This document shows positions 1,786 through 61,163 of a DNA stretch of 64,000 bases, one piece after another. A model generated the notes under the pieces. The model saw only the letters and a list, made by a program, of their open reading frames with translations. It did no database searches and was not told the DNA's origin. Within the stretch, counting starts at the first letter, position 1, and each line of letters starts with the position of its first letter. A program made the translations under genes and the position numbers. Location: NCBI GenBank assembly GCA_041666225.1, contig JBAYHJ010000001.1:1881-65880 (forward strand). Direction: 5' to 3'. The stretch is from Minisyncoccota bacterium (GTDB lineage: Bacteria; Patescibacteriota; Minisyncoccia; Phycocordibacterales; UBA9973).

Positions 1786-1795
1786 AATGATTAGT

Positions 1796-1872
1796 TAATC
1801 AAGTTATAAAGTTTTTAAAGTTGAAAGTAATTTCTTCTTTATAACTTTATGAACTTTTTACTTTATAACTTC
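1796..1872. repeat. MITE-like ~75-bp element copy 1 with terminal inverted repeats AGTTATAAAG / CTTTATAACT; occupies the rplP-rpsQ spacer where rpmC (L29) normally lies
   Basis: near-identical copies at 3438..3511 and 10861..10949, all in same orientation. Confidence 0.7.
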
Positions 1873-3429: not shown

Positions 3430-3437
3430 GATTTAGT

Positions 3438-3511
3438 TTATCAAGTTGTAAAGTTTTTAAAGTTGAAAGTAAATTCTTCTTTATAACTTTATGAACTTTC
3501 TACTTTATAAC
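3438..3511. repeat. MITE-like element copy 2 (rpsS-rplV spacer)
   Basis: tatcaagttgtaaagtttttaaagttgaaagtaaattcttctttataactttatgaactttctactttataactt, ~90% identical to 1796..1872. Confidence 0.7.
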
Positions 3512-3856
3512 TTACTTCTTCTTGGAATCAACTGCGGCCTTGGCTGATTTTGATGCGGTAATTTCGGCTTCTTTCTTCTTCATTTCTAATTCTTTCTGCA
3601 TCTTACCTCCGTGTCGGACAAATTTTCGTGTAAGTGAGAATTCTCCAAGTCTGTGTCCTACCATATCTTCACTTACTAGTACTTCTACGTGGGTCTTTCC
3701 GTTGTGAACACCAAAGACAAATCCAACCATTTCTGGGGAGATTTGACAGGCTCTTGCCCAAGTCTTAATCATCCCTGTTTCAATAGGTTTTTTACCGGCA
3801 ATCTTTTTTAATAGCCTTTCATCAACGTATGGACCTTTTTTAAGTGATCGTGTCAT
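3512..3856 (-). CDS. rpsS: 30S ribosomal protein S19 with Lys-rich C-terminal tail
   Basis: 114 aa; S19 core [15 protein letters not shown]. Confidence 0.85.
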
Positions 3857-5781: not shown

Positions 5782-5819
5782 AATTAAAAGTCGTTCTGGA
5801 AACAGAACGACTTTTTAGT

Positions 5820-6548
5820 TTACCGAAGCCTTGCTTCGGTAGGTTCTATTTCTTCTATCTCTAACCATTCAAATATTTCTTTCTTGAAAATATTTGGGTC
5901 CTCAAAATAATCAGGGAATTTCTCTTTATTTAAAATCAAATTTTCTGGTCTTTTAGATAAAAGATAATCATTATAACTACTCCATTTGTATGAATTAAGA
6001 AAATTAATAGCTTCTGTTTTATTATTTATCCCTACTTCCTTCCAGTCAGATTGAATCAATTTAATAGGATTTAAGTGTATATATGAAAATAAATATTTTG
6101 CTTGTATTTCATCTTCAATATGAATAGATTTAAATTTACCTTCAAATAAAGACCCTGTTCTGTTATGTTTTTTATTAAAATATTTTGCATATGCGGTACA
6201 GAGTTTTCCCATAAATTCAGTTATATTATTCCTCTCTTCATCTTTCCCATTAGACCTACCGAAGCCTTGCTTCGGTAAAGCTATTAAATACAAGTGGAAA
6301 TGGTTGGGCATCAGTACCCATGCACCAATAGCTACTAACTGGTCCCCCCTTTCAAAATCCCAAGCACTTATTTTGGGTTGAATGATATCATCTTTAAAAT
6401 TAATTCCTTTGGTTGAATTACAAAGAAATAAAAGCTTGATAAAGCGATCTCTATCTTCATCATCAAGAAAGATTATTTGTTTATTGTTTCCTCTATTGTA
6501 AATATGATAATATTCACCATCCACAAGTGGAACTTTTCTTAAAGACAT
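5820..6548 (-). CDS. REP-associated tyrosine transposase (RAYT, IS200/IS605 TnpA-like HuH-Y1), copy 1
   Basis: 242 aa; N-terminal YHIYNRGNNKQIIF, HuH motif LMPNHFHLYL, C-terminal WSSY...Y motif; flanked and interrupted by REP1 palindromes. Confidence 0.8.
   Translation of the reverse strand: MSLRKVPLVDGEYYHIYNRGNNKQIIFLDDEDRDRFIKLLFLCNSTKGINFKDDIIQPKISAWDFERGDQLVAIGAWVLMPNHFHLYLIALPKQGFGRSNGKDEERNNITEFMGKLCTAYAKYFNKKHNRTGSLFEGKFKSIHIEDEIQAKYLFSYIHLNPIKLIQSDWKEVGINNKTEAINFLNSYKWSSYNDYLLSKRPENLILNKEKFPDYFEDPNIFKKEIFEWLEIEEIEPTEARLR
5821..5841. repeat. REP1 palindrome taccgaagccttgcttcggta (copy a)
   Basis: perfect 8-bp arms; copies at 6256..6276, 6573..6593, 24612..24632. Confidence 0.8.
6256..6276. 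repeat. REP1 palindrome (copy b), located in-frame inside the RAYT-1 ORF (translates LPKQGFGRS)
   Basis: sequence identity to other REP1 copies. Confidence 0.8.
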
Positions 6549-6572
6549 ATATTACATTATACTACAAAGGTT

Positions 6573-6593
6573 TACCGAAGCAAGGCTTCGGTG
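6573..6593. repeat. REP1 palindrome (copy c, loop inverted: taccgaagcaaggcttcggtg)
   Basis: sequence. Confidence 0.75.
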
Positions 6594-6641
6594 GATATCT
6601 CGTTTCCCATGATTTTTTATTAAGTTAATTTTAATACCTTA

Positions 6642-6671
6642 ATAATACCCCCCCCCGAAAAATGAAGTCAG
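6642..6671 (-). promoter_or_regulatory. putative sigma70-like promoter with 9-nt poly-G in spacer (minus strand: ctgact-N18 incl. G9-tattat) upstream of RAYT-1
   Basis: C9 tract at 6648..6656 on plus strand; same architecture at 7748..7777, 23865..23895, 25464..25494. Confidence 0.45.
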
Positions 6672-6677
6672 CACATC

Positions 6678-6703
6678 AAAAAATACCCTTGCGGGTATTT
6701 TTT
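6678..6703. terminator. hairpin terminator aaaaaataccc-ttgc-gggtatttttt (duplicate of the rplB terminator at 7825..7851)
   Basis: sequence. Confidence 0.65.
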
Positions 6704-6760
6704 GATGATAGATTTTATATTTTTTTCTAAAATTATTTTGCTTTTCCAACTTTTCGGCGG

Positions 6761-6893
6761 GAGACAATCCACATGTTTGAGTATTTCTTTGGTGTTCTTG
6801 TCTTCTGTCCTTTTCCTGTTGGTTTACCCCACATACTTTTGGCTCGGCGTAGTCCGCGTCCTTGGCGTCCTTCACCTCCGCCGTGGAAACTCG
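6761..6893 (-). pseudogene. duplicated 3' fragment of rplB (encodes ...GGGEGRQGRGLRRAKSMWGKPTGKGQKTRTPKKYSNMWIVSRRK), no start codon
   Basis: near-identical to 7984..8116 of the intact rplB; the overlapping ORF-track entry 6639..6944 is in a different frame and judged spurious. Confidence 0.75.
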
Positions 6894-7016
6894 CAATAAC
6901 GGTTCATTAGAATTCCTTAATATATTATGAGATAAAACAAGCAAAAACGGTTATTTTAGAAAGATTACAAACAAAAAGCAACCACCTTAATCACAGTTAC
7001 ACTAAGATTATATTAA

Positions 7017-7745
7017 TTAATATTTATGTTTATTTTTTTTATTGGCAAGATCACCACGTAAATTTTCTATTAAATAAGTTGATTTGCCTGATTTTTCATT
7101 ATTTTTTTCGTATTTTATTGCTAATTTATCAAACATCTCTTCATTTTCGTCATCTACTGCTTTATAAAGTGCCCTGGAAATATATTTGTCTTCTAAGTGT
7201 AAATGAGCATTTTCAAGAGACCATGTTCTTTCAATTAAATTTTTACCAACAGCTTCATCGAGAATATTTTTTACTTTCCTTTCATCAAATTTTATACCAA
7301 GTTCAATTGCCCTTTCTGCCCAGCAATATAAATTAAACGGTGTTTTATAATCATGTCCCTCCTTTTCTTTTTTATAGAGTTCAATAAAATCATTAATATA
7401 TCCCAATATTTCAATAGGATCATTTACTCTATATTCTTTTGATTCTTTTATTACTTCTAGTAAAAAAGCGTCAACGTCCTCACTTTTTAACTGACCTACT
7501 TTTTCTTGAGTTCCATCTTTAATAATCTTACTTTTTTCATTAAATTCTCTATTTTCTATCTCTGCCTCATCTCGAACATTTTCAGATTCTTGAGCAAGAT
7601 TATTAAGCTCAAAATAAGCCTCCCTTGCATCTTTCCCCCCCGCCTCAATTTTTTCTTGAGTAGCTATTGTTCTTTTATTTAAATCCTCTGCATTAGTAAA
7701 ATTTTCCATATAAATATTCAAAAATATTATTAATAATATACACAT
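7017..7745 (-). CDS. hypothetical acidic/Lys-rich protein (likely true start MENFTNAEDL at ~7711)
   Basis: 242-aa ORF; driven by poly-G promoter 7748..7777; contains an internal G7 tract at ~7626-7632. Confidence 0.55.
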   Translation of the reverse strand: MCILLIIFLNIYMENFTNAEDLNKRTIATQEKIEAGGKDAREAYFELNNLAQESENVRDEAEIENREFNEKSKIIKDGTQEKVGQLKSEDVDAFLLEVIKESKEYRVNDPIEILGYINDFIELYKKEKEGHDYKTPFNLYCWAERAIELGIKFDERKVKNILDEAVGKNLIERTWSLENAHLHLEDKYISRALYKAVDDENEEMFDKLAIKYEKNNEKSGKSTYLIENLRGDLANKKNKHKY

Positions 7746-7747
7746 CT

Positions 7748-7777
7748 ATAGTACCCCCCCCAGACATACATTGTCAA
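7748..7777 (-). promoter_or_regulatory. putative poly-G spacer promoter (minus strand ttgaca-N18 incl. G8-tactat)
   Basis: C8 tract 7754..7761 on plus strand. Confidence 0.45.
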
Positions 7778-7824
7778 TAAAGATAAAAATATAAAAAACT
7801 ATCAAACCAACTTTTTTAAAAAAC

Positions 7825-7851
7825 AAAAAATACCCTTTCGGGTATTTTTTG
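7825..7851. terminator. hairpin terminator downstream of rplB (aaaaaataccc-tttc-gggtatttttt)
   Basis: sequence. Confidence 0.65.
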
Positions 7852-7956
7852 TTGATAGAGTTTTTTATTTTTAAGGCTATTTTGCTTTTCCCTGCCCGCC
7901 CTCGTGTACTCGGGAGCAGGCGGGCAACTTTTCGTTCTATTTGATATGACTAAATA

Positions 7957-8799
7957 TTATTTAGCCTTACCTACCTTCCTTCGAGAGACAATCCACATGT
8001 TTGAGTATTTCTTTGGTGTTCTTGTCTTCTGTCCTTTTCCTGTTGGTTTACCCCACATACTTTTGGCTCGGCGTAGTCCGCGTCCTTGGCGTCCTTCACC
8101 TCCACCGTGTGGATGGTCAACTGGGTTCATGGCTGTACCACGAACTGTTGGGCGAATTCCTTTCCATCGTGAACGTCCTGCTTTTCCAAAGTTTTGAAGT
8201 TTGTATTCACTGTTTGAAACTTCACCAATACATGCCCAGGCATTTTCTGAAACTTTTCGAACTTCAGTTGATGGCATTTTGATATTTGTATACCCAAGGT
8301 CATTGGCAACAACTTGTCCAAATGTACCTGCGGAACGAGCCAATTTTGCTCCATTACCAGCTTTAATCTCTACGTTATACACAAATGTTCCAACTGGAAT
8401 TATTTTAAGAGGTAAACGATTTCCAACTGCAAGTGGAGCTGTTTCGGAAACTATAAATTTATCTCCAACTTTCATTGATTTAGGTACAACCACGTATCTT
8501 TTTTCTCCGTCAGCGTAGCAAGCTAAACTGATGAAGGCATTACGATTTGGATCATATTCTATTGAAGTTATTTTGGCAGGAATATCGTGCTTGTTGTACA
8601 TGAAATCGATTTCACGATAAAGACGCTTATGTCCACCCCCTTTATGGCGAGTAGTGATACGTCCCTGATTATTTCTTCCAACAGATCTCTTAAAACCTTT
8701 TGTTAAAGATTTTTCTGGAGTACTTGTCGTCAACACATTACGGTATGTTACCGTAGTTTGGTGACGCTTTGATGGAGTTGTAGGTCTATATGTTTTCAT
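7957..8799 (-). CDS. rplB: 50S ribosomal protein L2
   Basis: 280 aa; L2 signature (HPHGGGEGR, RNNQGRITTRHKGGGHKR). Confidence 0.92.
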   Translation of the reverse strand: MKTYRPTTPSKRHQTTVTYRNVLTTSTPEKSLTKGFKRSVGRNNQGRITTRHKGGGHKRLYREIDFMYNKHDIPAKITSIEYDPNRNAFISLACYADGEKRYVVVPKSMKVGDKFIVSETAPLAVGNRLPLKIIPVGTFVYNVEIKAGNGAKLARSAGTFGQVVANDLGYTNIKMPSTEVRKVSENAWACIGEVSNSEYKLQNFGKAGRSRWKGIRPTVRGTAMNPVDHPHGGGEGRQGRGLRRAKSMWGKPTGKGQKTRTPKKYSNMWIVSRRKVGKAK

Positions 8800-10860: not shown

Positions 10861-10949
10861 CTTAGTTATAAAGTTTGTAAAGTTGAAAGTTTGTAAAGCA
10901 AATGCATTTTTAATCTACTTTATAACTTTATGAACTTTATGAACTTTCT
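10861..10949. repeat. MITE-like element copy 3 (tuf-rpsJ spacer), with extra tatgaactt repeat
   Basis: ttagttataaagtttgtaaagttgaaagt...ctactttataactttatgaactttatgaactttctact. Confidence 0.65.
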
Positions 10950-18872: not shown

Positions 18873-18896
18873 TGTTGGAAGTCGGACTTCCAACAT
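18873..18896. repeat. REP2 palindrome tgttggaagtcggacttccaaca
   Basis: copies at 19529..19557, 19773..19800, 58654..58680, 61013..61035; degenerate half-copies at 18632-18650 and 18683-18700. Confidence 0.8.
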
Positions 18897-18900
18897 TTTG

Positions 18901-18996
18901 TTAACTTCCAACTTAACTTCCAACTTAACTTCCAACTTAACTTCCAACTTAACTTCCAACTTAACTTCCAACTTAACTTCCAACTTAACTTCCAAC
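18901..18996. repeat. tandem repeat, 12-nt unit ttaacttccaac x8 (derived from REP2 half-site)
   Basis: perfect 8 tandem units; produces the spurious EVKL-repeat ORF 18810..18995. Confidence 0.9.
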
Positions 18997-19024
18997 CTTT
19001 AACTTTCCATTTATTTATTCTTAT

Positions 19025-19798
19025 TTATTCTAATGTAGTCCCTGATAAATTATCAATATTAAACGATTCAATCCAGTCGGAAATTTGTTTATACTGTTTA
19101 TCTTCATCTCCAAATAATTCAATCAAAAAATCTTTTTTAATTATCGAGGGAAAATTTTTCTTTCCAATATAATCAAGCAAACTACTCCACCTATAATTCA
19201 AAAGGAATTCTAAAGCTTTTTCAGGGTCAGAAATCTTGCCGTTTCGCCATTCTTTAAATTCAAAGTCGAGTGGATTTAAATGAATATATATAGGGAGGTA
19301 CATAAAGTGTGCATCATTTTCTATGTGAATTGATTTAAATTTGCCCTGGAAAAGCGCTCCGTTTCTTTTGTACTTTTGATTAAAATAATTCGTATAACCA
19401 GTTCCAAGCTTTCTCATAAAATTCGTAATTCCATTTTCTTCTTTTTGTCTAATGAGCATATGAAAATGATTGTCCATCAAACAATAAGCCAAAATCTCCA
19501 CAATCGGCTCTTTCCTCTTGTTTTTTATAATTGTTGGAAGTCCGACTTCCAACAATTTGCTTTGACTTTGGTGACGAGAGATTAAATTATTAATATTAAT
19601 TGAAGGATTTTTATCATTAAATTCATACATATCATGAATAAATCTAAAATTATCTCTTTCATTAATAAAAATATTCCTTTTATCTACCCCTCTGTTGTAA
19701 ATATGATAAATCTCATTTGTGGCAAATTTTGATTTTCTAATTGACATATAACTATTATAACAAATTAAATAAATTGTTGGAAGTCGGACTTCCAACAA
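19025..19798 (-). CDS. REP-associated tyrosine transposase (RAYT), copy 2; probable true start MSIRKSKF at ~19744
   Basis: IYHIYNRGVDKRNIF, HuH CLMDNHFHMLI, C-terminal YRWSSLLDY; REP2 palindrome in-frame at 19529..19557 (LEVGLPTI) and another at the 5' end. Confidence 0.75.
   Translation of the reverse strand: MLEVRLPTIYLICYNSYMSIRKSKFATNEIYHIYNRGVDKRNIFINERDNFRFIHDMYEFNDKNPSININNLISRHQSQSKLLEVGLPTIIKNKRKEPIVEILAYCLMDNHFHMLIRQKEENGITNFMRKLGTGYTNYFNQKYKRNGALFQGKFKSIHIENDAHFMYLPIYIHLNPLDFEFKEWRNGKISDPEKALEFLLNYRWSSLLDYIGKKNFPSIIKKDFLIELFGDEDKQYKQISDWIESFNIDNLSGTTLE
19529..19557. repeat. REP2 palindrome inside RAYT-2 coding sequence
   Basis: aattgttggaagtccgacttccaacaatt. Confidence 0.8.
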
Positions 19799-19800
19799 TT
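19773..19800. repeat. REP2 palindrome at RAYT-2 5' end
   Basis: sequence. Confidence 0.8.
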
Positions 19801-19979
19801 GACTTTTTGGGGTGATTATAATAACATTTGTGAGTAGTAAGTCCGTTCTCGAACCGGGCTTTTATTTTTAGAAAACCATGAAAATGGCTCCTGAAAAAAA
19901 TTTAATAGTTAGTAAAATTTAATAAAAACAATTTTTAATTTTAATAATTTATTTTAATTAATAATTCGTAATAATTCAT

Positions 19980-21281: not shown

Positions 21282-23300
21282 ATGCATATGAATCCATTTA
21301 TTATTTTTGCTCTTGTTTCTTCAGTTATCGCAATATTATATGGTTTACTTTTAATCAAAGTTGTTCTTAAAAAAGGTACTGGTGATGCTAAAATGCAAGC
21401 TATTGCAAAAGCAATCCAAGAAGGTGCAAGTGCATATTTAAATCGCCAATACAAAACTATTGGAATTATCGCGATCGTTCTATTCTTAATAATCGGTCTA
21501 GTGCCAATGCTCGGCTGGATGATGGCAATCAGTTTTATTTTTGGAGCTATTTTATCAGCAGTTGCAGGATACATCGGCATGAACGTTTCCGTTCGTGCAA
21601 ATGTCCGCACCACAGAAGAAGCAAAGAAAGGTTTGAAGGAAGCTCTGTCACTTGCTTTCAAAGGCGGAACAGTTACAGGACTTTTGGTTGTTGGTTTAGC
21701 CTTGCTTGGAGTTACTGTTTTCTACATGATTACCGGGGATGTGAAGTCTCTTATTGGTTTATCATTCGGAGCAAGTTTGATTTCAGTTTTCGCTCGACTA
21801 GGCGGTGGAATATTTACAAAAGCTGCGGACGTCGGTGCTGACCTTGTCGGCAAAGTTGAGGCTGGAATTCCAGAAGATGATCCTCGTAATCCTGCTGTTA
21901 TCGCTGATAATGTTGGAGACAATGTTGGAGACTGTGCTGGTATGGCCGCTGACTTATTTGAAACATATGCTGTGACTTCTGTTGCAACAATGCTTCTAGG
22001 CTCTCTCATGTTTGCTGGTTTTGGAAATGCAATTATCTACCCGCTCGCTATTGGTGGAGTTGCAATAATTTCTTCAATCATCGGTACATGGTTTGTAACA
22101 CTTGGAAAAAATAAAAATATCATGGGTGCTTTGTACAAAGGATTAATCGCTGCAGGAATTCTTTCTGCTATTAGTTTCTACCCTATTACAAAATGGCTTA
22201 TGGCTGACAATGGACTCTACTCAGTTGGAGCATTATATGTAAGTGCTTTAGTTGGTATATTTGTTACAGCTTTAATAATAGTTATAACAGAGTACTACAC
22301 TTCAACAGCTTACAATCCTGTGAAATCAATTGCGCAAGCAAGTCTCTCAGGTCACGGTACAAACGTGATTCAAGGACTTGCTGTTTCGATGAAATCTACT
22401 GCTTTCCCATTACTTACAATCGTGGCTGGTATTTTAGTCTCTTATCATTTTGCTGGTTTGTATGGAATAGCAATCGCAGCGATGTCCATGCTTTCTCTTA
22501 CCGGAATCATCGTCGCTATCGATTCATTTGGCCCTATCACTGACAATGCTGGTGGTATTGCTGAGATGGCAGGACTTCCAGATTCTGTCCGCGCAGTTAC
22601 TGACCCACTAGATGCTGTTGGAAATACAACAAAGGCGGTGACAAAAGGTTACGCTATCGGTTCAGCTGGACTTGCAGCTCTTGTACTCTTTGCTTCATAC
22701 ACACAAGAATTTGCAAACCTAGGACATTCTCTAACTTTTGATTTAAGTAATCCTAAAGTTATCGCAGGTCTACTTATAGGAGGATTACTTCCTTACTACT
22801 TCAGTGCTCTATGTATGGAAGCCGTAGGGAAAGCTGCCGGAAAAGTTGTTGAAGAAGTTCGCCGACAATTCAGAGAAATTAAAGGTATCATGGACGGAAC
22901 AGGTAAACCTGATTACGCTACTTGTGTAGATATCGTTACAACTGGTGCTCTTAAACAAATGATTCTTCCAGCTGTTATTGCCGTTCTCTCTCCAATCCTA
23001 GTTGGATTTATTTTAGGCCCTGAAGCTCTTGGTGGTTTACTTGTCGGTTCAATCATCACAGGGATATTCCTCGCAATCTCAATGACTTCCGGTGGTGGAG
23101 CATGGGACAATGCTAAGAAATATATTGAACTTGGAAACTTTGGTGGTAAAGGTAGTGACGCTCACAAGGCAGCCGTCACAGGAGATACTGTCGGAGACCC
23201 CTATAAAGACACAGCCGGCCCAGCCATCAACCCAATGATTAAAATCCTAAATATCATTGCTTTGATTCTGGTTCCAATTCTCGTTTCCTTTTGGTTTTAA
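21282..23300 (+). CDS. hppA: membrane-bound H+/Na+-translocating pyrophosphatase
   Basis: 672 aa; multi-TM; motifs [62 protein letters not shown]. Confidence 0.92.
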
Positions 23301-23329
23301 TTAATTTAAAAATTAATTAAATAGATAAT

Positions 23330-23400: not shown

Positions 23401-23802
23401 TTAACCTTTCTTATTCATAAATTTATATACTATATCAATTTGTTCTCTTAACTTTTTACCTTCTTCTGGATTCATTATTTCAGCTGCTCTCACAAAAATT
23501 TCCATATTCTTATATTGAGATATCCACTCCCTATTATTCAAGAGATGATCCTTCACGGATCCAGGTTGTCCTGAGCCGGCTTTTCCTTCTAATATTTCTT
23601 TGGAATTATAAAACAACTTTGTTTTATAACTATTAAAATTACGTTCATAAAGTCTTGAATCTTTTTTATAAACCTCAATCATATTTAAGGTTTCTTTTTC
23701 TGCATTATCCATTATTTCTAAATACGCAGGACTAACATCATTACTCTCCTCTTTTTTACTATCACCCTCATTGTTATTTTGAACTTTATCAAATTGTCCC
23801 AT
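23401..23802 (-). CDS. hypothetical acidic protein
   Basis: 133 aa; immediately downstream of poly-G promoter 23865..23895. Confidence 0.5.
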   Translation of the reverse strand: MGQFDKVQNNNEGDSKKEESNDVSPAYLEIMDNAEKETLNMIEVYKKDSRLYERNFNSYKTKLFYNSKEILEGKAGSGQPGSVKDHLLNNREWISQYKNMEIFVRAAEIMNPEEGKKLREQIDIVYKFMNKKG

Positions 23803-23864
23803 AAATTTTATATTTTAATCCGCCTCAGCAGATAAGTTAATAATGCAAACTTTCTAATACCCTC

Positions 23865-23895
23865 ATTCTACCCCCCCCCTCATATGAGGTGTCAA
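23865..23895 (-). promoter_or_regulatory. putative poly-G spacer promoter (minus strand ttgaca-N19 incl. G9-tagaat)
   Basis: C9 at 23871..23879; ~90-nt block 23803..23895 is ~90% identical to 25402..25494. Confidence 0.5.
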
Positions 23896-23979: not shown

Positions 23980-24285
23980 ATGAATAAATTCAAGGTATTA
24001 TTTATAAATGAAGTTAGAAATTTTATTAATTCGCTTCCAGATGAAGATAAAGGTAAAATCAACTGTGATTCAAATGCTATGGAATTAGGTAATTTTGATT
24101 CCTTATACATCAAAACACTTAGTACTCCTATCAAGGAATTAATTATTAAAAAATACAGACTAATCTTTTTTATAAATAAAAATGAAATCTGGTTTATAGG
24201 AGCATTTATAAAGAAAACTTCCAAAACTCCAAAAAATGAAATAGAAAATGCTAAAAAGTTATACAAAGAAATTATTAATTTATAA
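23980..24285 (+). CDS. HigB/Gp49-like (RelE/ParE superfamily) toxin
   Basis: 101 aa; C-terminal IWFIGAFIKKTSKTPKNEIENAKKLYKEI typical of Gp49/HigB family; plus-strand promoter ttgaca-N18-tatatt at 23914-23943. Confidence 0.6.
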   Translation: MNKFKVLFINEVRNFINSLPDEDKGKINCDSNAMELGNFDSLYIKTLSTPIKELIIKKYRLIFFINKNEIWFIGAFIKKTSKTPKNEIENAKKLYKEIINL

Positions 24286-24295
24286 CAAAAAATAT

Positions 24296-24601
24296 ATGAA
24301 AACAATTAAAACAAAAAATGGTAAAACTTTAAAGTTTTATACTGCAGATGAAGTATTTAAAAAAGATTCAAAATCTAAAGTTTTTGTTGAGGCTTATAAC
24401 GAAGAACTTATTCGGTTAAATCTCGTAGGTGAAATTAAAAAGTTACGACTTGCAAAAAAATATACTCAGAAAGACCTCGCCCAAAAAGCACAAATGCCTC
24501 AATCTGTAATAGCCCGAATAGAGAGTGGAGAACATAGTTTCTCTCTTGGTACTCTTAGCCGTATCGCAAAAGTATTCAAAAAAGAAATACAATTAGTCTA
24601 A
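24296..24601 (+). CDS. XRE-family HTH antitoxin (HigA-like)
   Basis: [33 protein letters not shown]; overlaps/abuts toxin gene. Confidence 0.6.
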
Positions 24602-24611
24602 AATAAAATTC

Positions 24612-24632
24612 CACCGAAGCAAGGCTTCGGTA
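24612..24632. repeat. REP1 palindrome (copy d) abutting the hppA 3' fragment
   Basis: caccgaagcaaggcttcggta. Confidence 0.8.
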
Positions 24633-24635
24633 AAT

Positions 24636-24737
24636 TACAAAGATACCGCAGGACCCGCAATCAATCCAATGATTAAAATATTAAATATCATTGCTCTCAT
24701 TATCGTTCCGATCTTGGTTGCAATTTGGTTTAAATAA
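24636..24737 (+). pseudogene. orphan diverged copy of hppA 3' end (encodes [33 protein letters not shown])
   Basis: ~78% nt identity to 23193..23300, differences mostly synonymous; followed by hairpin terminator 24758..24796. Confidence 0.75.
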
Positions 24738-24757
24738 AATCTAATCGAATTATCAAC

Positions 24758-24798: not shown

Positions 24799-25401
24799 TT
24801 ATTTTTCCCCATGGGGAAGTTCTTCAATTGCCTGAGGTCCATCCCAAGCAAAATGCAGATATTTATTTTCTATTTTTTCTTTTAGGGCAAAAGATAAATA
24901 CAAGTTAAACCCTTTTTTGACTGAATCTTGTTCAATTCTTTCTTCTCTATTTTGAATAGAAGTAGAAATATTTTCTGGCCTCTGATTTTGACTCAAATTA
25001 TAAAGAACTGCCTTATCTACATCAGCAACAAAATTAATTTTTTCTAGTTCTTCTTTACTCAACTGATTAACGAATTCTTTAACTATTTTTGGATCTTTTA
25101 TAATTAGAGATTGATATCGACCTCCATTTTTTACATCATTTTCCCAACTTTTATCTTCTTTGTTTACAGGAAATTCTTCTAGAAAAAGATTTTTAAGACT
25201 TTCGACTTTTTCATCTGGAACATAAGAAACTTCTCTGTCTATAAAATCTGCATCTTCATCATTACCGTGATAATCCACAGGTAAAAACCAAGTGTATTTA
25301 TAATTTTCAATTAAATCACTAACCACTTTTCTTATTTTTTGTTTTTCGACAGTATTTTCATCTTTTTTTACTGCTTCGTTTTTATTTAATCCTTCATTCA
25401 T
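24799..25401 (-). CDS. hypothetical acidic protein
   Basis: 200 aa; preceded by poly-G promoter 25464..25494. Confidence 0.5.
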   Translation of the reverse strand: MNEGLNKNEAVKKDENTVEKQKIRKVVSDLIENYKYTWFLPVDYHGNDEDADFIDREVSYVPDEKVESLKNLFLEEFPVNKEDKSWENDVKNGGRYQSLIIKDPKIVKEFVNQLSKEELEKINFVADVDKAVLYNLSQNQRPENISTSIQNREERIEQDSVKKGFNLYLSFALKEKIENKYLHFAWDGPQAIEELPHGEK

Positions 25402-25463
25402 AAATTTTATATTTTAATCTGCCTCAACAGATAGTTAATAATGCAAACTTTTCTAATACCCTC

Positions 25464-25494
25464 ATTCTACCCCCCCCCTCATATAACCTGTCAA
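25464..25494 (-). promoter_or_regulatory. putative poly-G spacer promoter (ttgaca-N19 incl. G9-tagaat), paralog of 23865..23895
   Basis: C9 at 25470..25478. Confidence 0.5.
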
Positions 25495-58655: not shown

Positions 58656-58680
58656 TGTTGGAAGTCGGACTTCCAACATT
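58654..58680. repeat. REP2 palindrome immediately after the comM stop codon
   Basis: aatgttggaagtcggacttccaacatt. Confidence 0.8.
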
Positions 58681-58799
58681 TTAAATTTCTTTATCGAGGC
58701 GCTTGGCTTCAGCCCAAGAAAGTTCGTAAATTTTTTTCATCGCATCAGCAATTTCAGCATTATTTTGTAAAGCTAATAAAAGATGTATTATTAATAGAT

Positions 58800-60975: not shown

Positions 60976-61012
60976 ATCTTTTCTTGGCTGAGTATGGGGC
61001 AGTGTCAGGAGT

Positions 61013-61035
61013 GTTGGAAGTCGGACTTCCAACAT
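61013..61035. repeat. REP2 palindrome followed (61047..61080) by a ~30-nt duplicate of the 3' end of the upstream Cys-rich gene (ttattgtgaaagttgttatcaaca)
   Basis: match to 60869..60892. Confidence 0.75.
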
Positions 61036-61163
61036 TTTAGATCTCTTTATTGTGAAAGTTGTTATCAACAGGAGATATATTAGATGGGGATCAAAAAGAG
61101 CGGGTTGGCTTCGCCAACCCGCTCTTTTAATTAGTAATTAGTAATTTTTAATTAGTAATTATT

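What the first reader, a model, noticed from the sequence alone, without database searches (positions are those of the whole stretch)
6642..7777. Promoters with 8-9 nt poly-G tracts in the -35/-10 spacer: candidate phase-variable switches
On the minus strand, ctgact-N18(G9)-tattat precedes RAYT-1 (C9 at 6648..6656 on the plus strand). ttgaca-N18(G8)-tactat precedes the hypothetical gene 7017..7745 (C8 at 7754..7761). Two further copies lie at 23865..23895 and 25464..25494 (G9, spacer 19). Homopolymeric G tracts inside promoter spacers are the classic slipped-strand phase-variation mechanism in Neisseria and Haemophilus. With G9 the spacer is 18-19 nt, which is suboptimal. Loss of 1-2 G would give the optimal 17 nt. 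G/C runs of 8 or more are otherwise absent from this AT-rich window.
Basis: partly seen in the sequence, partly recalled or inferred. Interest (0 to 1): 0.75.

Follow-up and report, generated by a model that had tools for sequence, protein, structure and literature searches.

The report
Poly-G spacer promoters of Patescibacteria orphan genes
The four G8-G9 runs are real and belong to a promoter type found across the ultrasmall Patescibacteria (CPR) bacteria, where a G run of variable length fills half the gap between the two promoter boxes in front of small genes of unknown function; this makes them plausible but unproven slippage-driven expression switches.

Summary
Observation confirmed. C9 6648-6656, C8 7754-7761, C9 23871-23879 and C9 25470-25478 are the only G/C runs of 8 or more in the window (about 0.3 expected). 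Each lies on the minus strand between a -35 box (TTGACA or CTGACT) and a -10 box (TAnnAT), giving spacers of 18, 18, 19 and 19.

This is not a local oddity. A genome scan found the same module in about 45 Patescibacteria genomes: -35, N9-10, G6 to G15, TAnnAT, nnnGGTATTA, an A/U-rich leader, ATGG. It sits almost only before orphan proteins.

The -35 box keeps a fixed distance from the 5' end of the run, so run length sets the spacer (13-23). Ordinary consensus promoters in the same DNA peak at 16-17.

Switching itself is not shown. Two to four independent assemblies of this strain have identical tract lengths, and no reads or TSS data were available. Against a pure switch, the run is always G on the sense strand and abuts the -10. 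One subfamily is G9 in 6 of 7 cases, and one jumbo-phage contig has 17 such G7-G9 promoters.

The G9 "RAYT promoter" is really a truncated cassette head. RAYT orthologs lack it and share their own promoter inside the REP hairpin.

Verdict: new variant of a known kind; interpretation partly supported.

The parts
7748..7777 (-). Poly-G promoter 2: TTGACA (7777-7772), 18-nt spacer ATGTATGTCT+G8 (G8 = 7754-7761), -10 box TACTAT (7753-7748)
   Evidence: The same sequence and tract length occur in three other assemblies.
7017..7709 (-). Cassette gene hyp230 (MENFTNAEDL...). It is all-helical. Its N-terminal ~55 aa are conserved in a family whose C-termini vary. An internal G7 run (7635-7641) encodes the invariant Gly-Gly.
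   Evidence: No Pfam, NCBIfam or PHROG hit.
6642..6671 (-). Poly-G promoter 1: CTGACT (6671-6666), 18-nt spacer TCATTTTTC+G9 (G9 = 6648-6656), -10 box TATTAT (6647-6642). It is followed by taaGGTATTA (GGTATTA = 6638-6632).
   Evidence: This block is absent from the orthologous RAYT loci L078-L080.
6572..6610 (-). 12-codon ORF MGNEISTEALLR, 31 nt after the -10 box of promoter 1, with the class-typical ATGG start. It is a truncated cassette head that runs into the REP hairpin.
6546..6596 (-). REP hairpin (6570-6596) plus the conserved promoter of the RAYT-like gene: TTGCTT (6583-6578), N16, TATAAT (6561-6556), N7, ATG (6548). The mRNA is probably leaderless.
   Evidence: This block is conserved in orthologs L078, L079 and L080.
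5820..6548 (-). RAYT-like Y1 transposase gene, flanked by inverted REP hairpins at 5817-5845 and 6570-6596. A third REP copy lies in frame inside the gene (6258-6276).
   Evidence: (REP_Tyr_transpos E = 6.6e-10, below the curated cut-off)
23865..23895 (-). Poly-G promoter 3: TTGACA (23895-23890), 19-nt spacer CCTCATATGA+G9 (G9 = 23871-23879), -10 box TAGAAT (23870-23865)
   Evidence: (repeat family D6)
23401..23864 (-). 62-nt leader (starting GAGGGTATTAGAAA..., with a small hairpin) and cassette gene hyp133 (23401-23802)
25464..25494 (-). Poly-G promoter 4: TTGACA (25494-25489), 19-nt spacer GGTTATATGA+G9 (G9 = 25470-25478), -10 box TAGAAT (25469-25464)
24799..25463 (-). 62-nt leader and cassette gene hyp200 (24799-25401). 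The protein is an ORFan that matches only itself among 5.8 billion proteins.
6674..6885 (-). Duplicated rplB 3' end (pseudo-copy 6729-6885) and terminator (6674-6707). Together with the real rplB end and terminator (7824-8109), it brackets the hyp230 cassette.
   Evidence: (D2, D17)

Best explanation
The four tracts are the variable-length part of a conserved promoter-leader module of Patescibacteria. The module reads: -35 box (TTGACA or TTGCCA), 9-10 ordinary bases, a run of G on the sense strand, -10 box TAnnAT, nnnGGTATTA around the start site, a short A/U-rich leader without a Shine-Dalgarno sequence, and ATGG.

The module heads small accessory gene cassettes. These encode orphan proteins, or proteins with a conserved N-terminus and a variable C-terminus, and they are inserted at hotspots next to toxin-antitoxin and REP/RAYT elements.

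The -35 box is anchored to the 5' end of the run, so each gain or loss of a G by replication slippage changes the -35/-10 spacing by 1 bp. The likely result is that transcription moves between strong (about 16-17 bp) and weak or off (19 bp or more, or 15 bp or less). That would be heritable, reversible, gene-by-gene tuning or phase variation of accessory genes. In this genome, G8-G9 gives spacers of 18-19, so the state is predicted to be low or off.

Shown: the architecture, its distribution, the dependence of spacer length on run length, and the normal spacer optimum in these organisms.
Inferred: that slippage occurs at a useful rate, that expression follows spacer length, and that this is the selected function.
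For: - Tracts and hexamers are verified and are far above chance.
- The genome scan gave 61 hits. Forty are in named Patescibacteria classes, and five more are in unnamed or mislabelled bins with the same architecture.
- Run length is spread across 6-11, with one of 15. The -35 box lies 9-10 nt from the 5' end of the run in 35 of 51 cases. Correlation between run length and the non-G part is only -0.24. The -35 box aligns better when sequences are anchored on the run's 5' end than on the -10 box. Spacers range 13-23 and track run length.
- Ordinary TTGAC[AT]/TA.[AT]AT promoters in the same 407 kb peak sharply at 16-17, whereas poly-G promoters peak at 19.
- In L012, paralogs of the same promoter exist with G8, G9 and G9, with a decayed run (gcatgcGGGG), and with no run at all. 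The run is therefore an add-on to a normal promoter.
- Near-identical paralog pairs differ by one G: L012 G8/G9 and L052 G8/G7.
- Among the runs not found through the search motif, 4 of 9 G runs of 7 or more in 381 kb of Patescibacteria DNA are again in a -35/-10 spacer.
- 34 of 36 downstream proteins have no Pfam domain. hyp200 is an ORFan. The hyp230 family shares only its N-terminal ~55 aa.
- The cassettes are strain-specific insertions. Relatives have rplB-DAGK-rpsS with no poly-G.
- Precedent: Treponema pallidum poly-G promoters are length-variable within strains and control transcription, with tp0126 optimal at a 17-nt spacer. Their consensus still stays at G9 (PMC7864442).
Against: - No length difference was seen at any of the four tracts among 2-4 independent assemblies of this strain.
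- The subfamily sharing TAGAATGAGGGTATTAGAAA is G9 in 6 of 7 members from at least five organisms, despite substitutions in the flanks. This indicates selection for, or stability of, exactly G9.
- The run is always G on the sense strand and always abuts the -10 box. No C-run equivalent was seen. A pure length spacer would not need this.
- One 208-kb viral contig has 17 TTGACA-N7-10-G7-9-TA[AG]AAT promoters (mostly N7-8 and G8-9), which looks like a fixed promoter consensus.
- One-base differences between paralogs in other MAGs could be homopolymer errors in those assemblies.
- There are no TSS, read-level or expression data.
Confidence: 0.5

Rival explanations
1. The G run is a fixed, recognised part of the promoter core. 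It could be an extended -10-like or upstream-clamp element read by the housekeeping sigma factor, by an alternative sigma, or by a dedicated regulator of an 'orphan-gene regulon'. Its length would be held by selection, and slippage would be incidental noise rather than a switch.
For: - The run is strand-specific (always G on the sense strand), always touches the -10 box, and comes with a conserved GGTATTA start region.
- G9 is kept in 6 of 7 promoters of the TAGAATGAGGGTATTAGAAA subfamily.
- Tract lengths are identical in all assemblies of this strain.
- A jumbo-phage contig has 17 promoters with G7-G9 (15 of them G8 or G9) whatever the total spacer, 15-18.
- Saccharibacteria-type members carry an extra conserved TGTGnATAAC box 6-7 nt upstream of the -35 box in 9 of 48 cases (0.27 expected), which suggests control by a DNA-binding protein.
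Against: - Run length in Patescibacteria is spread nearly evenly over 6-9 and reaches 15. A protein-contact element would show a sharp length mode.
- Paralogs with a decayed run or no run keep the same -35 and -10 boxes with an 18-nt spacer.
- GGGTAnnAT is not enriched in the window apart from the four sites (8 observed, 6.3 expected).
- About half of the family would have spacers outside 16-18 if no switching were intended.
Confidence: 0.3
2. The poly-G promoter block is a hitchhiking, portable piece of mobile or recombining gene cassettes. It would spread by duplication, gene conversion and homology-facilitated integration. The run would then be an inherited feature of that block with no regulatory role of its own.
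For: - The block from the -35 box to the ATG is 83% identical in the gap-free comparison of the two window copies (one 1-nt indel shifts the register), while the genes behind it are unrelated.
- The same core precedes different genes in other genomes.
- The cassettes lie in strain-specific insertions bracketed by duplicated 3' ends of rplB and of the H+-PPase gene, next to REP copies and toxin-antitoxin modules.
- A truncated copy sits in front of the REP-RAYT unit.
Against: - Mobility explains the spread but not why a pure, mutationally unstable G6-G15 run is kept in an AT-rich genome across several Patescibacteria classes.
- No target-site duplications, terminal inverted repeats or dedicated recombinase were found for the cassettes.
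- The full motif had no hit in viral contigs.
Confidence: 0.12
3. The pattern is chance or a sequencing or assembly artefact.
For: Homopolymer lengths are error-prone in some sequencing chemistries.
Against: - Four runs were seen where 0.26 are expected.
- The same context recurs each time.
- The same lengths occur in NCBI, ENA, JGI and Logan assemblies.
- The same module occurs in about 45 other genomes.
Confidence: 0.01

Closest known systems
Treponema pallidum poly-G promoters (tp0126, tprE/G/J, tprL)
   Same: - G runs of about 7-12 lie inside promoters.
- For tp0126 the run lies between the -35 and -10 boxes, and transcription is best when the spacer is 17.
- Several promoters per genome share the device.
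- The consensus length is often G9 (PMC7864442, read).
   Different: - In T. pallidum, length heterogeneity within strains and its effect on reporter expression were measured. Neither is known here.
- The Treponema targets are outer-membrane proteins. Here the targets are signal-peptide-less orphan proteins.
- Here the run is part of a longer conserved module (fixed N9-10, GGTATTA, SD-less leader, ATGG) spread over a whole superphylum.
Neisseria meningitidis porA (poly-G in the spacer) and opc (poly-C), and Bordetella fim promoters (poly-C)
   Same: A homopolymer in or next to the -35/-10 spacer changes the spacing by slippage and grades transcription. For porA and opc this is summarised in PMC7864442. 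The Bordetella case is from my own knowledge.
   Different: - Those are single loci in pathogens, with either strand used (G or C).
- Here there are many loci per genome, only G on the sense strand, the run always flush with the -10 box, and a non-pathogen lineage.
Mycoplasma hyorhinis vlp genes (own knowledge, not checked here)
   Same: A multigene family in which each gene has a highly conserved 5' block: a promoter with a homopolymer (poly-A) in the spacer, plus a conserved N-terminus. The rest of the coding region is divergent.
   Different: - The vlp genes use poly-A rather than poly-G, and their products are lipoproteins with signal peptides.
- Membership cannot be claimed. This is only an analogy of layout.
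Multi-copy poly-G promoters on the IMG/VR contig IMGVR_UViG_3300015214_000001 (jumbo-phage-like)
   Same: TTGACA, a short ordinary stretch, G7-G9, then TA[AG]AAT, found 17 times in the four fetched stretches of one contig.
   Different: - It has no GGTATTA, and Shine-Dalgarno sequences are present.
- The non-G part is 7-8 nt in 14 of 17 promoters (10 nt in the other three), giving spacers of 15-18.
- Its genes are unrelated and look phage-like, with proteobacterial-type SSB relatives.
- Its promoters are undescribed as far as I could find.

Membership tests
Slipped-strand phase-variable promoter (porA / tp0126 type) | Homopolymeric tract of about 7 or more inside the -35/-10 spacer of a sigma-70-type promoter | tested here: met
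   G8-G9 forms the part of the 18-19-nt spacers next to the -10 box at all four sites.
Slipped-strand phase-variable promoter (porA / tp0126 type) | Tract length is polymorphic within a clonal population or between closely related strains | tested here: inconclusive
   Lengths are identical in 2-4 assemblies of the same strain. They differ between species (6-15) and by 1 G between paralogs in L012 and L052. Read-level data were not available.
Slipped-strand phase-variable promoter (porA / tp0126 type) | Transcription level depends on tract length | not testable with these tools
   There is only indirect support. Normal promoters in these genomes prefer spacers of 16-17, and run length sets the spacer.
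Slipped-strand phase-variable promoter (porA / tp0126 type) | Mapped transcription start downstream of the -10 box | not testable with these tools
   No transcriptome data. The position is inferred from the hexamers and from the constant 26-62 nt distance to ATGG.
Sigma-70-type promoter | -35 and -10 hexamers close to consensus, 16-19 bp apart, upstream of an ORF start | tested here: met
   TTGACA at 3 of 4 sites and CTGACT at 1 of 4. The -10 boxes are TACTAT, TAGAAT, TAGAAT and TATTAT. Promoters 3 and 4 were missed by the scan tool only because their spacer is 19.
REP/RAYT system (as the unit that promoter 1 was said to drive) | Y1 (IS200-like) transposase flanked by inverted REP hairpins, with further REP copies elsewhere | tested here: met
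   REP_Tyr_transpos E = 6.6e-10, which is below the curated cut-off. The protein is 37% identical to a second RAYT in the window. REP copies lie at 5822-5840, 6258-6276, 6574-6592 and 24613-24631.
REP/RAYT system (as the unit that promoter 1 was said to drive) | The poly-G promoter is the gene's conserved promoter | tested here: not met
   Orthologs at the same rplB-DAGK locus (L079, L080) and in L078 lack the poly-G block. They share REP-TTGCTT-N16-TATAAT-N7-ATG instead.
Known structured RNA leader (riboswitch or similar) in the conserved 5' UTRs | Match to an Rfam family at the gathering score | tested here: not met
   No Rfam match in 5000-27000. Most leaders of the class are unstructured and A/U-rich.

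The most novel reading that the evidence does not exclude
Patescibacteria as a whole use a dedicated, hypermutable poly-G promoter module as contingency switches. The switches would act on a large, fast-turning-over repertoire of orphan proteins with a conserved N-terminus and a polymorphic C-terminus, possibly factors for interacting with the host cell. Each cell in an episymbiont population would then express a different random subset. This would be the first regulatory principle described for this superphylum. It would also be the first case of promoter phase variation organised as a portable promoter-leader cassette across a whole phylum-level lineage.
Probability: 0.3. Interest if true: 0.85.

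Novelty: new variant of a known kind. Interest (0 to 1): 0.62.

Why it matters
Almost nothing is known about gene regulation in Patescibacteria. They make up a large share of bacterial diversity and live attached to other microbes.

This work yields a conserved promoter-leader module that can be found from sequence alone. It marks the strain-specific orphan genes, which are the least understood part of these genomes.

If the G run acts as a slippage switch, these organisms diversify expression of accessory proteins cell by cell, as pathogens with small genomes do. If it is instead a fixed element, it defines a new promoter-core signal, also used by a jumbo phage.

Both readings can be tested in the cultured, genetically tractable Saccharibacteria. 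One hit (L034, Nanosyncoccus, G15) comes from that group.

Tried and rejected
- The Logan contig L001 starts exactly at the G9 run, which looked like a graph break caused by length heterogeneity. I rejected this. The two window copies share 35 nt (ATATGA+G9+20 nt), longer than k = 31, and they diverge at the very next base. That repeat predicts the break.
- I looked for other strains through exact-protein look-ups of flanking genes. The PaaX-like and Gp49-like proteins gave nothing on record. The hyp200, hyp133 and hyp230 look-ups gave only the same strain.
- The metagenome scan with the subfamily core gave only three relevant hits, all G9.
- GGGTAnnAT as a general extended -10 element of this genome is not enriched.
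- A structured RNA in the leaders: no Rfam hit. A small hairpin is present only in a minority of leaders.
- Function of the cassette proteins: no Pfam, NCBIfam or PHROG family. The AlphaFold model of hyp230 is all-helical (pLDDT 72) with no significant PDB fold match.
- The cassette proteins are not one family.
- Phage origin of the Patescibacteria module: the full motif is absent from viral contigs. The looser motif found unrelated phage promoters.
- Literature: no paper in the library links Patescibacteria with homopolymeric tracts, contingency loci or promoter motifs.
Full report
**1. The observation**

The window (34.1% G+C) has exactly four G/C runs of 8 or more: C9 6648-6656, C8 7754-7761, C9 23871-23879 and C9 25470-25478. 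All are C on the + strand. A first-order Markov model gives 0.26 such runs per window.

Read on the minus strand, each run is the part of a promoter-like spacer next to the -10 box:
- CTGACT-TCATTTTTC-G9-TATTAT
- TTGACA-ATGTATGTCT-G8-TACTAT
- TTGACA-CCTCATATGA-G9-TAGAAT
- TTGACA-GGTTATATGA-G9-TAGAAT

Three of the four continue with nnnGGTATTA.

The same sequences, with the same run lengths, occur in independent ENA, JGI and Logan assemblies of the same organism. That organism is a Candidatus Paceibacterota MAG. Its L2 protein is at most 94% identical to that of its nearest relatives, which are Nomurabacteria/Paceibacteria.

**2. What the promoters drive**

Three promoters head intact small genes on the minus strand:
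- hyp230, 7017-7709. The true start is MENFT. The longer ORF from 7745 would begin upstream of the predicted transcription start, and only the 230-aa product is on record.
- hyp133, 23401-23802.
- hyp200, 24799-25401.

None has a Pfam, NCBIfam or PHROG match, and they are unrelated to each other. hyp200 matches only itself among 5.8 billion proteins.

hyp230 is all-helical with no significant fold match. An exhaustive HMMER search finds 11 relatives. Ten of them share only the N-terminal part (about 55-110 aa; consensus MENFTNAEDLNKRTxxAQEKIKAGG...) and have unrelated C-termini of varying length.

The fourth promoter (G9 at 6648) is followed after 31 nt by ATGG and a 12-codon ORF (MGNEISTEALLR, 6572-6610). 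This ORF runs into the REP hairpin in front of the RAYT-like gene.

RAYT orthologs sit at the same rplB-DAGK locus in relatives (L079, L080) and also occur in L078. They lack the poly-G block. They share REP-TTGCTT-N16-TATAAT-N7-ATG, which is a promoter embedded in the REP and probably gives a leaderless mRNA. So promoter 1 is a truncated cassette head, not the conserved RAYT promoter. It may still read through into the RAYT gene.

**3. Context**

The S10 ribosomal operon is interrupted between rplB and rpsS. Relatives have rplB-DAGK-rpsS and no G runs.

The window has this order instead: rplB, hyp230 cassette, a duplicated 3' end of rplB plus terminator, truncated cassette, REP-RAYT-REP, two further ORFs, DAGK, rpsS.

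The two other cassettes flank a HigB/HigA-like toxin-antitoxin pair. They are bracketed by a duplicated 3' end of the H+-pyrophosphatase gene, with a REP copy at the junction. The poly-G promoters therefore belong to strain-specific accessory insertions.

**4. The module is found across Patescibacteria**

A scan of one genome per GTDB species with GGGGGGTANNATNNNGGTATTA gave 61 hits:
- 40 in bins named as Patescibacteria (Paceibacteria, Nomura-, Kaiser-, Vogel-, Uhrbacteria, Minisyncoccia, Saccharibacteria).
- 5 more in unnamed or mislabelled bins with the same full architecture.
- 16 hits elsewhere. These mostly have G6-7, and most lack a -35 box or a gene start, so they look like chance matches.

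In the Patescibacteria hits the layout is constant:
- A -35 box (TTGACA in Paceibacteria-like bins, TTGCCA in Saccharibacteria-like bins), then 9-10 ordinary bases, then the G run of 6-11 (once 15), then TAnnAT and nnnGGTATTA.
- A 26-41 nt leader that is A/U-rich, mostly unstructured, and lacks a Shine-Dalgarno sequence. It often begins TATTAnAAATAAT.
- A start codon in the context tttATGG.

34 of 36 downstream proteins have no Pfam domain. They are small, hydrophilic, and mostly unrelated to each other.

In L012, five tandem small genes share the N-terminus MNENEPK and the same promoter type, again beside a toxin-antitoxin pair. I excluded the runs found through the search motif itself. Of the remaining G runs of 7 or more in 381 kb of Patescibacteria DNA, 4 of 9 are again in a -35/-10 spacer, and none appears as a C run before a -10 box.

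**5. Does the run behave as a variable spacer?**

- The -35 box lies 9-10 nt from the 5' end of the run in 35 of 51 cases. The length of the non-G part barely compensates for run length (r = -0.24). The -35 box aligns better when sequences are anchored on the run's 5' end than on the -10 box.
- The spacer follows run length: about 15 for G6, 17 for G7, 18-19 for G9, 19 for G10 and 21 for G15. The overall range is 13-23.
- Ordinary consensus promoters in the same 407 kb peak sharply at 16-17 (11 and 13 cases over a background of about 3 per bin). At least two apparent 19s are really 17s, with TATACT as the -10 box. Poly-G promoters peak at 19. By the standard of these genomes, G8-G9 with N9-10 is therefore 1-2 bp too long. 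Relatives with N10+G7 = 17 exist (L009, L014, L021, L051, L055).
- In L012, paralogous promoters occur with G8, G9 and G9, with a decayed run (gcatgcGGGG, spacer 18), and with no run (spacer 18). The run is therefore dispensable for promoter identity.
- Near-identical paralogs differ by one G in L012 (G8/G9) and L052 (G8/G7). Homopolymer errors in those assemblies cannot be excluded.

**6. What argues against a simple switch**

- The four window tracts have the same length in every assembly available.
- The subfamily that shares TAGAATGAGGGTATTAGAAA is G9 in 6 of 7 promoters from at least five organisms, although the flanks have diverged.
- The run is strand-specific and always touches the -10 box.
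- Saccharibacteria-type members carry an extra TGTGnATAAC box 6-7 nt upstream of the -35 box (9 of 48; 0.27 expected). This hints at a protein regulator.
- A looser scan of viral contigs found a 208-kb phage-like contig with 17 promoters of the form TTGACA-N7-10-G7-9-TA[AG]AAT before unrelated phage-type genes. Three other viral contigs share aattgcTTGACA-N8-G7/8-TAGAAT. In the 208-kb contig the run stays at G8 or G9 in 15 of 17 promoters while the total spacer varies from 15 to 18. That looks like a promoter consensus element.

A constant consensus does not refute switching. In T. pallidum the tprL run is mostly G9, yet minority lengths of 7-11 are present within strains and affect transcription (PMC7864442).

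**7. Mechanism proposed**

The best-supported reading (confidence about 0.5) has four steps:
1. The run is the hypermutable half of the spacer of a portable promoter-leader module.
2. Slippage changes the -35/-10 distance in 1-bp steps.
3. Transcription of the cassette behind the promoter is thereby tuned, or switched, gene by gene.
4. In this genome the prevailing state (18-19 bp) is predicted to be low.

The architecture, its distribution, the dependence of spacer on run length and the 16-17 optimum are shown. The slippage rate, the dependence of expression on length, and adaptive value are inferred from established behaviour of G runs of 8 or more and of sigma-70 spacers.

The main rival (about 0.3) is that the run is a recognised, length-constrained core element. 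A further rival (about 0.12) is that it is simply inherited with a mobile cassette block. Chance or artefact is excluded.

**8. Comparison with what is known, and novelty**

The device works like the poly-G promoters of T. pallidum (tp0126, tprE/G/J, tprL) and like porA of Neisseria. In layout it also resembles the vlp genes of Mycoplasma hyorhinis, which have a conserved 5' block with a homopolymer and variable coding parts; this last comparison is from my own knowledge.

Membership in the class "slipped-strand phase-variable promoter" is met for position and tract type. It is inconclusive for polymorphism and untestable here for expression.

I found no paper that links Patescibacteria with homopolymeric tracts, contingency loci or promoter motifs. 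The library is incomplete, so this is absence of evidence only.

I rate the finding a new variant of a known kind, with interest 0.62. The most novel reading not excluded is a phase-variable promoter cassette system across the superphylum, controlling polymorphic orphan proteins. I give that a probability of about 0.3.

Noticed in passing
window 6729-6885 vs 7953-8109 (also 6677-6725 vs 7824-7872): The 3' end of rplB and its terminator are duplicated around the hyp230 cassette. About 120 nt are 100% identical. The last 10 codons encode the same peptide (VSRRKVGKAK) with different codons in the two copies. A remnant of the old end lies after the real stop codon. This looks like integration by a single crossover (Campbell-type or homology-facilitated) of DNA from a relative.
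   Followed up: partly
window 23202-23304 vs 24636-24738: The 3' end of the H+-pyrophosphatase gene (21282-23300) and a terminator are duplicated at 78% identity. The copies bracket the hyp133 cassette and a HigB/HigA-like toxin-antitoxin pair (23980-24601). A REP hairpin (24610-24634) sits exactly at the junction.
   Followed up: partly
window 6546-6596; L078, L079, L080: RAYT orthologs share a promoter embedded in the REP hairpin (TTGCTT in the hairpin, N16, TATAAT, N7, ATG), so the mRNA is probably leaderless. The gene keeps a fixed position between rplB and the DAGK gene in several relatives, as expected for a domesticated single-copy RAYT.
   Followed up: partly
window 6258-6276: A perfect REP copy lies in frame inside the RAYT-like gene itself. 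It corresponds to a 13-aa insertion (ALPKQGFGRSNGK) relative to the second RAYT in the window.
   Followed up: no
window 18873-19813, 58656-58694, 61012-61050: There is a second RAYT-like gene (19025-19798) with its own REP family (TGTTGGAAGTCGGACTTCCAACA, five copies). A 12-nt tandem repeat (TTAACTTCCAAC, about 10 copies, 18877-19020) lies next to it. No poly-G promoter is present there.
   Followed up: no
window 7635-7641: A G7 run inside hyp230 encodes the Gly-Gly that is invariant in the protein family. It could be a second frameshift-type slippage site in the same cassette. It is also G7 in the three other assemblies.
   Followed up: partly
L015, L018, L019, L028, L031, L038, L040, L051, L055: Saccharibacteria-type poly-G promoters carry a conserved TGTGnATAAC box, which resembles a DnaA box by my own recollection. 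It lies 6-7 nt upstream of the -35 box in 9 of 48 promoters against 0.27 expected. It is a candidate operator or activator site.
   Followed up: partly
L083, L091, L094, L095 (IMGVR_UViG_3300015214_000001, 208 kb); L087, L089, L092: A jumbo-phage-like contig has 17 promoters of the form TTGACA-N7-10-G7-9-TA[AG]AAT (mostly N7-8 and G8-9) before small genes that have Shine-Dalgarno sequences. Three other viral contigs share aattgcTTGACA-N8-G7/8-TAGAATtgtcttgcaatt. Poly-G spacer promoters therefore also form a multi-copy class in phages. No close relatives were found among isolated phages.
   Followed up: partly
window 1791-1871, 3433-3513, 10864-10938: An intergenic element of about 80 nt (AGTTATAAAGTTTTTAAAGTTGAAAGT...TCTTCTTTATAACTTTATGAACTTT) occurs three times within the tuf-S10 ribosomal gene cluster. 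The first two copies are 95% identical over 81 nt, and the third matches two sub-blocks at 96%.
   Followed up: no
L012 2700-5700: In another Paceibacterota genome, five tandem small genes with the shared N-terminus MNENEPK/MSENEPK lie next to a toxin-antitoxin pair. Their promoters show every state from G9 to no run. This is a good natural series for testing what the run does.
   Followed up: partly
window 23800-23864, 25399-25463; L044, L067, L014, L021, L042: A minority of the leaders contain a small hairpin with a GNRA-like loop. Its 3' arm is G-rich and resembles a Shine-Dalgarno sequence (aGGcGa), 10-15 nt before the ATG. The stem shows t-a to c-g changes between copies. It has no Rfam match.
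   Followed up: partly
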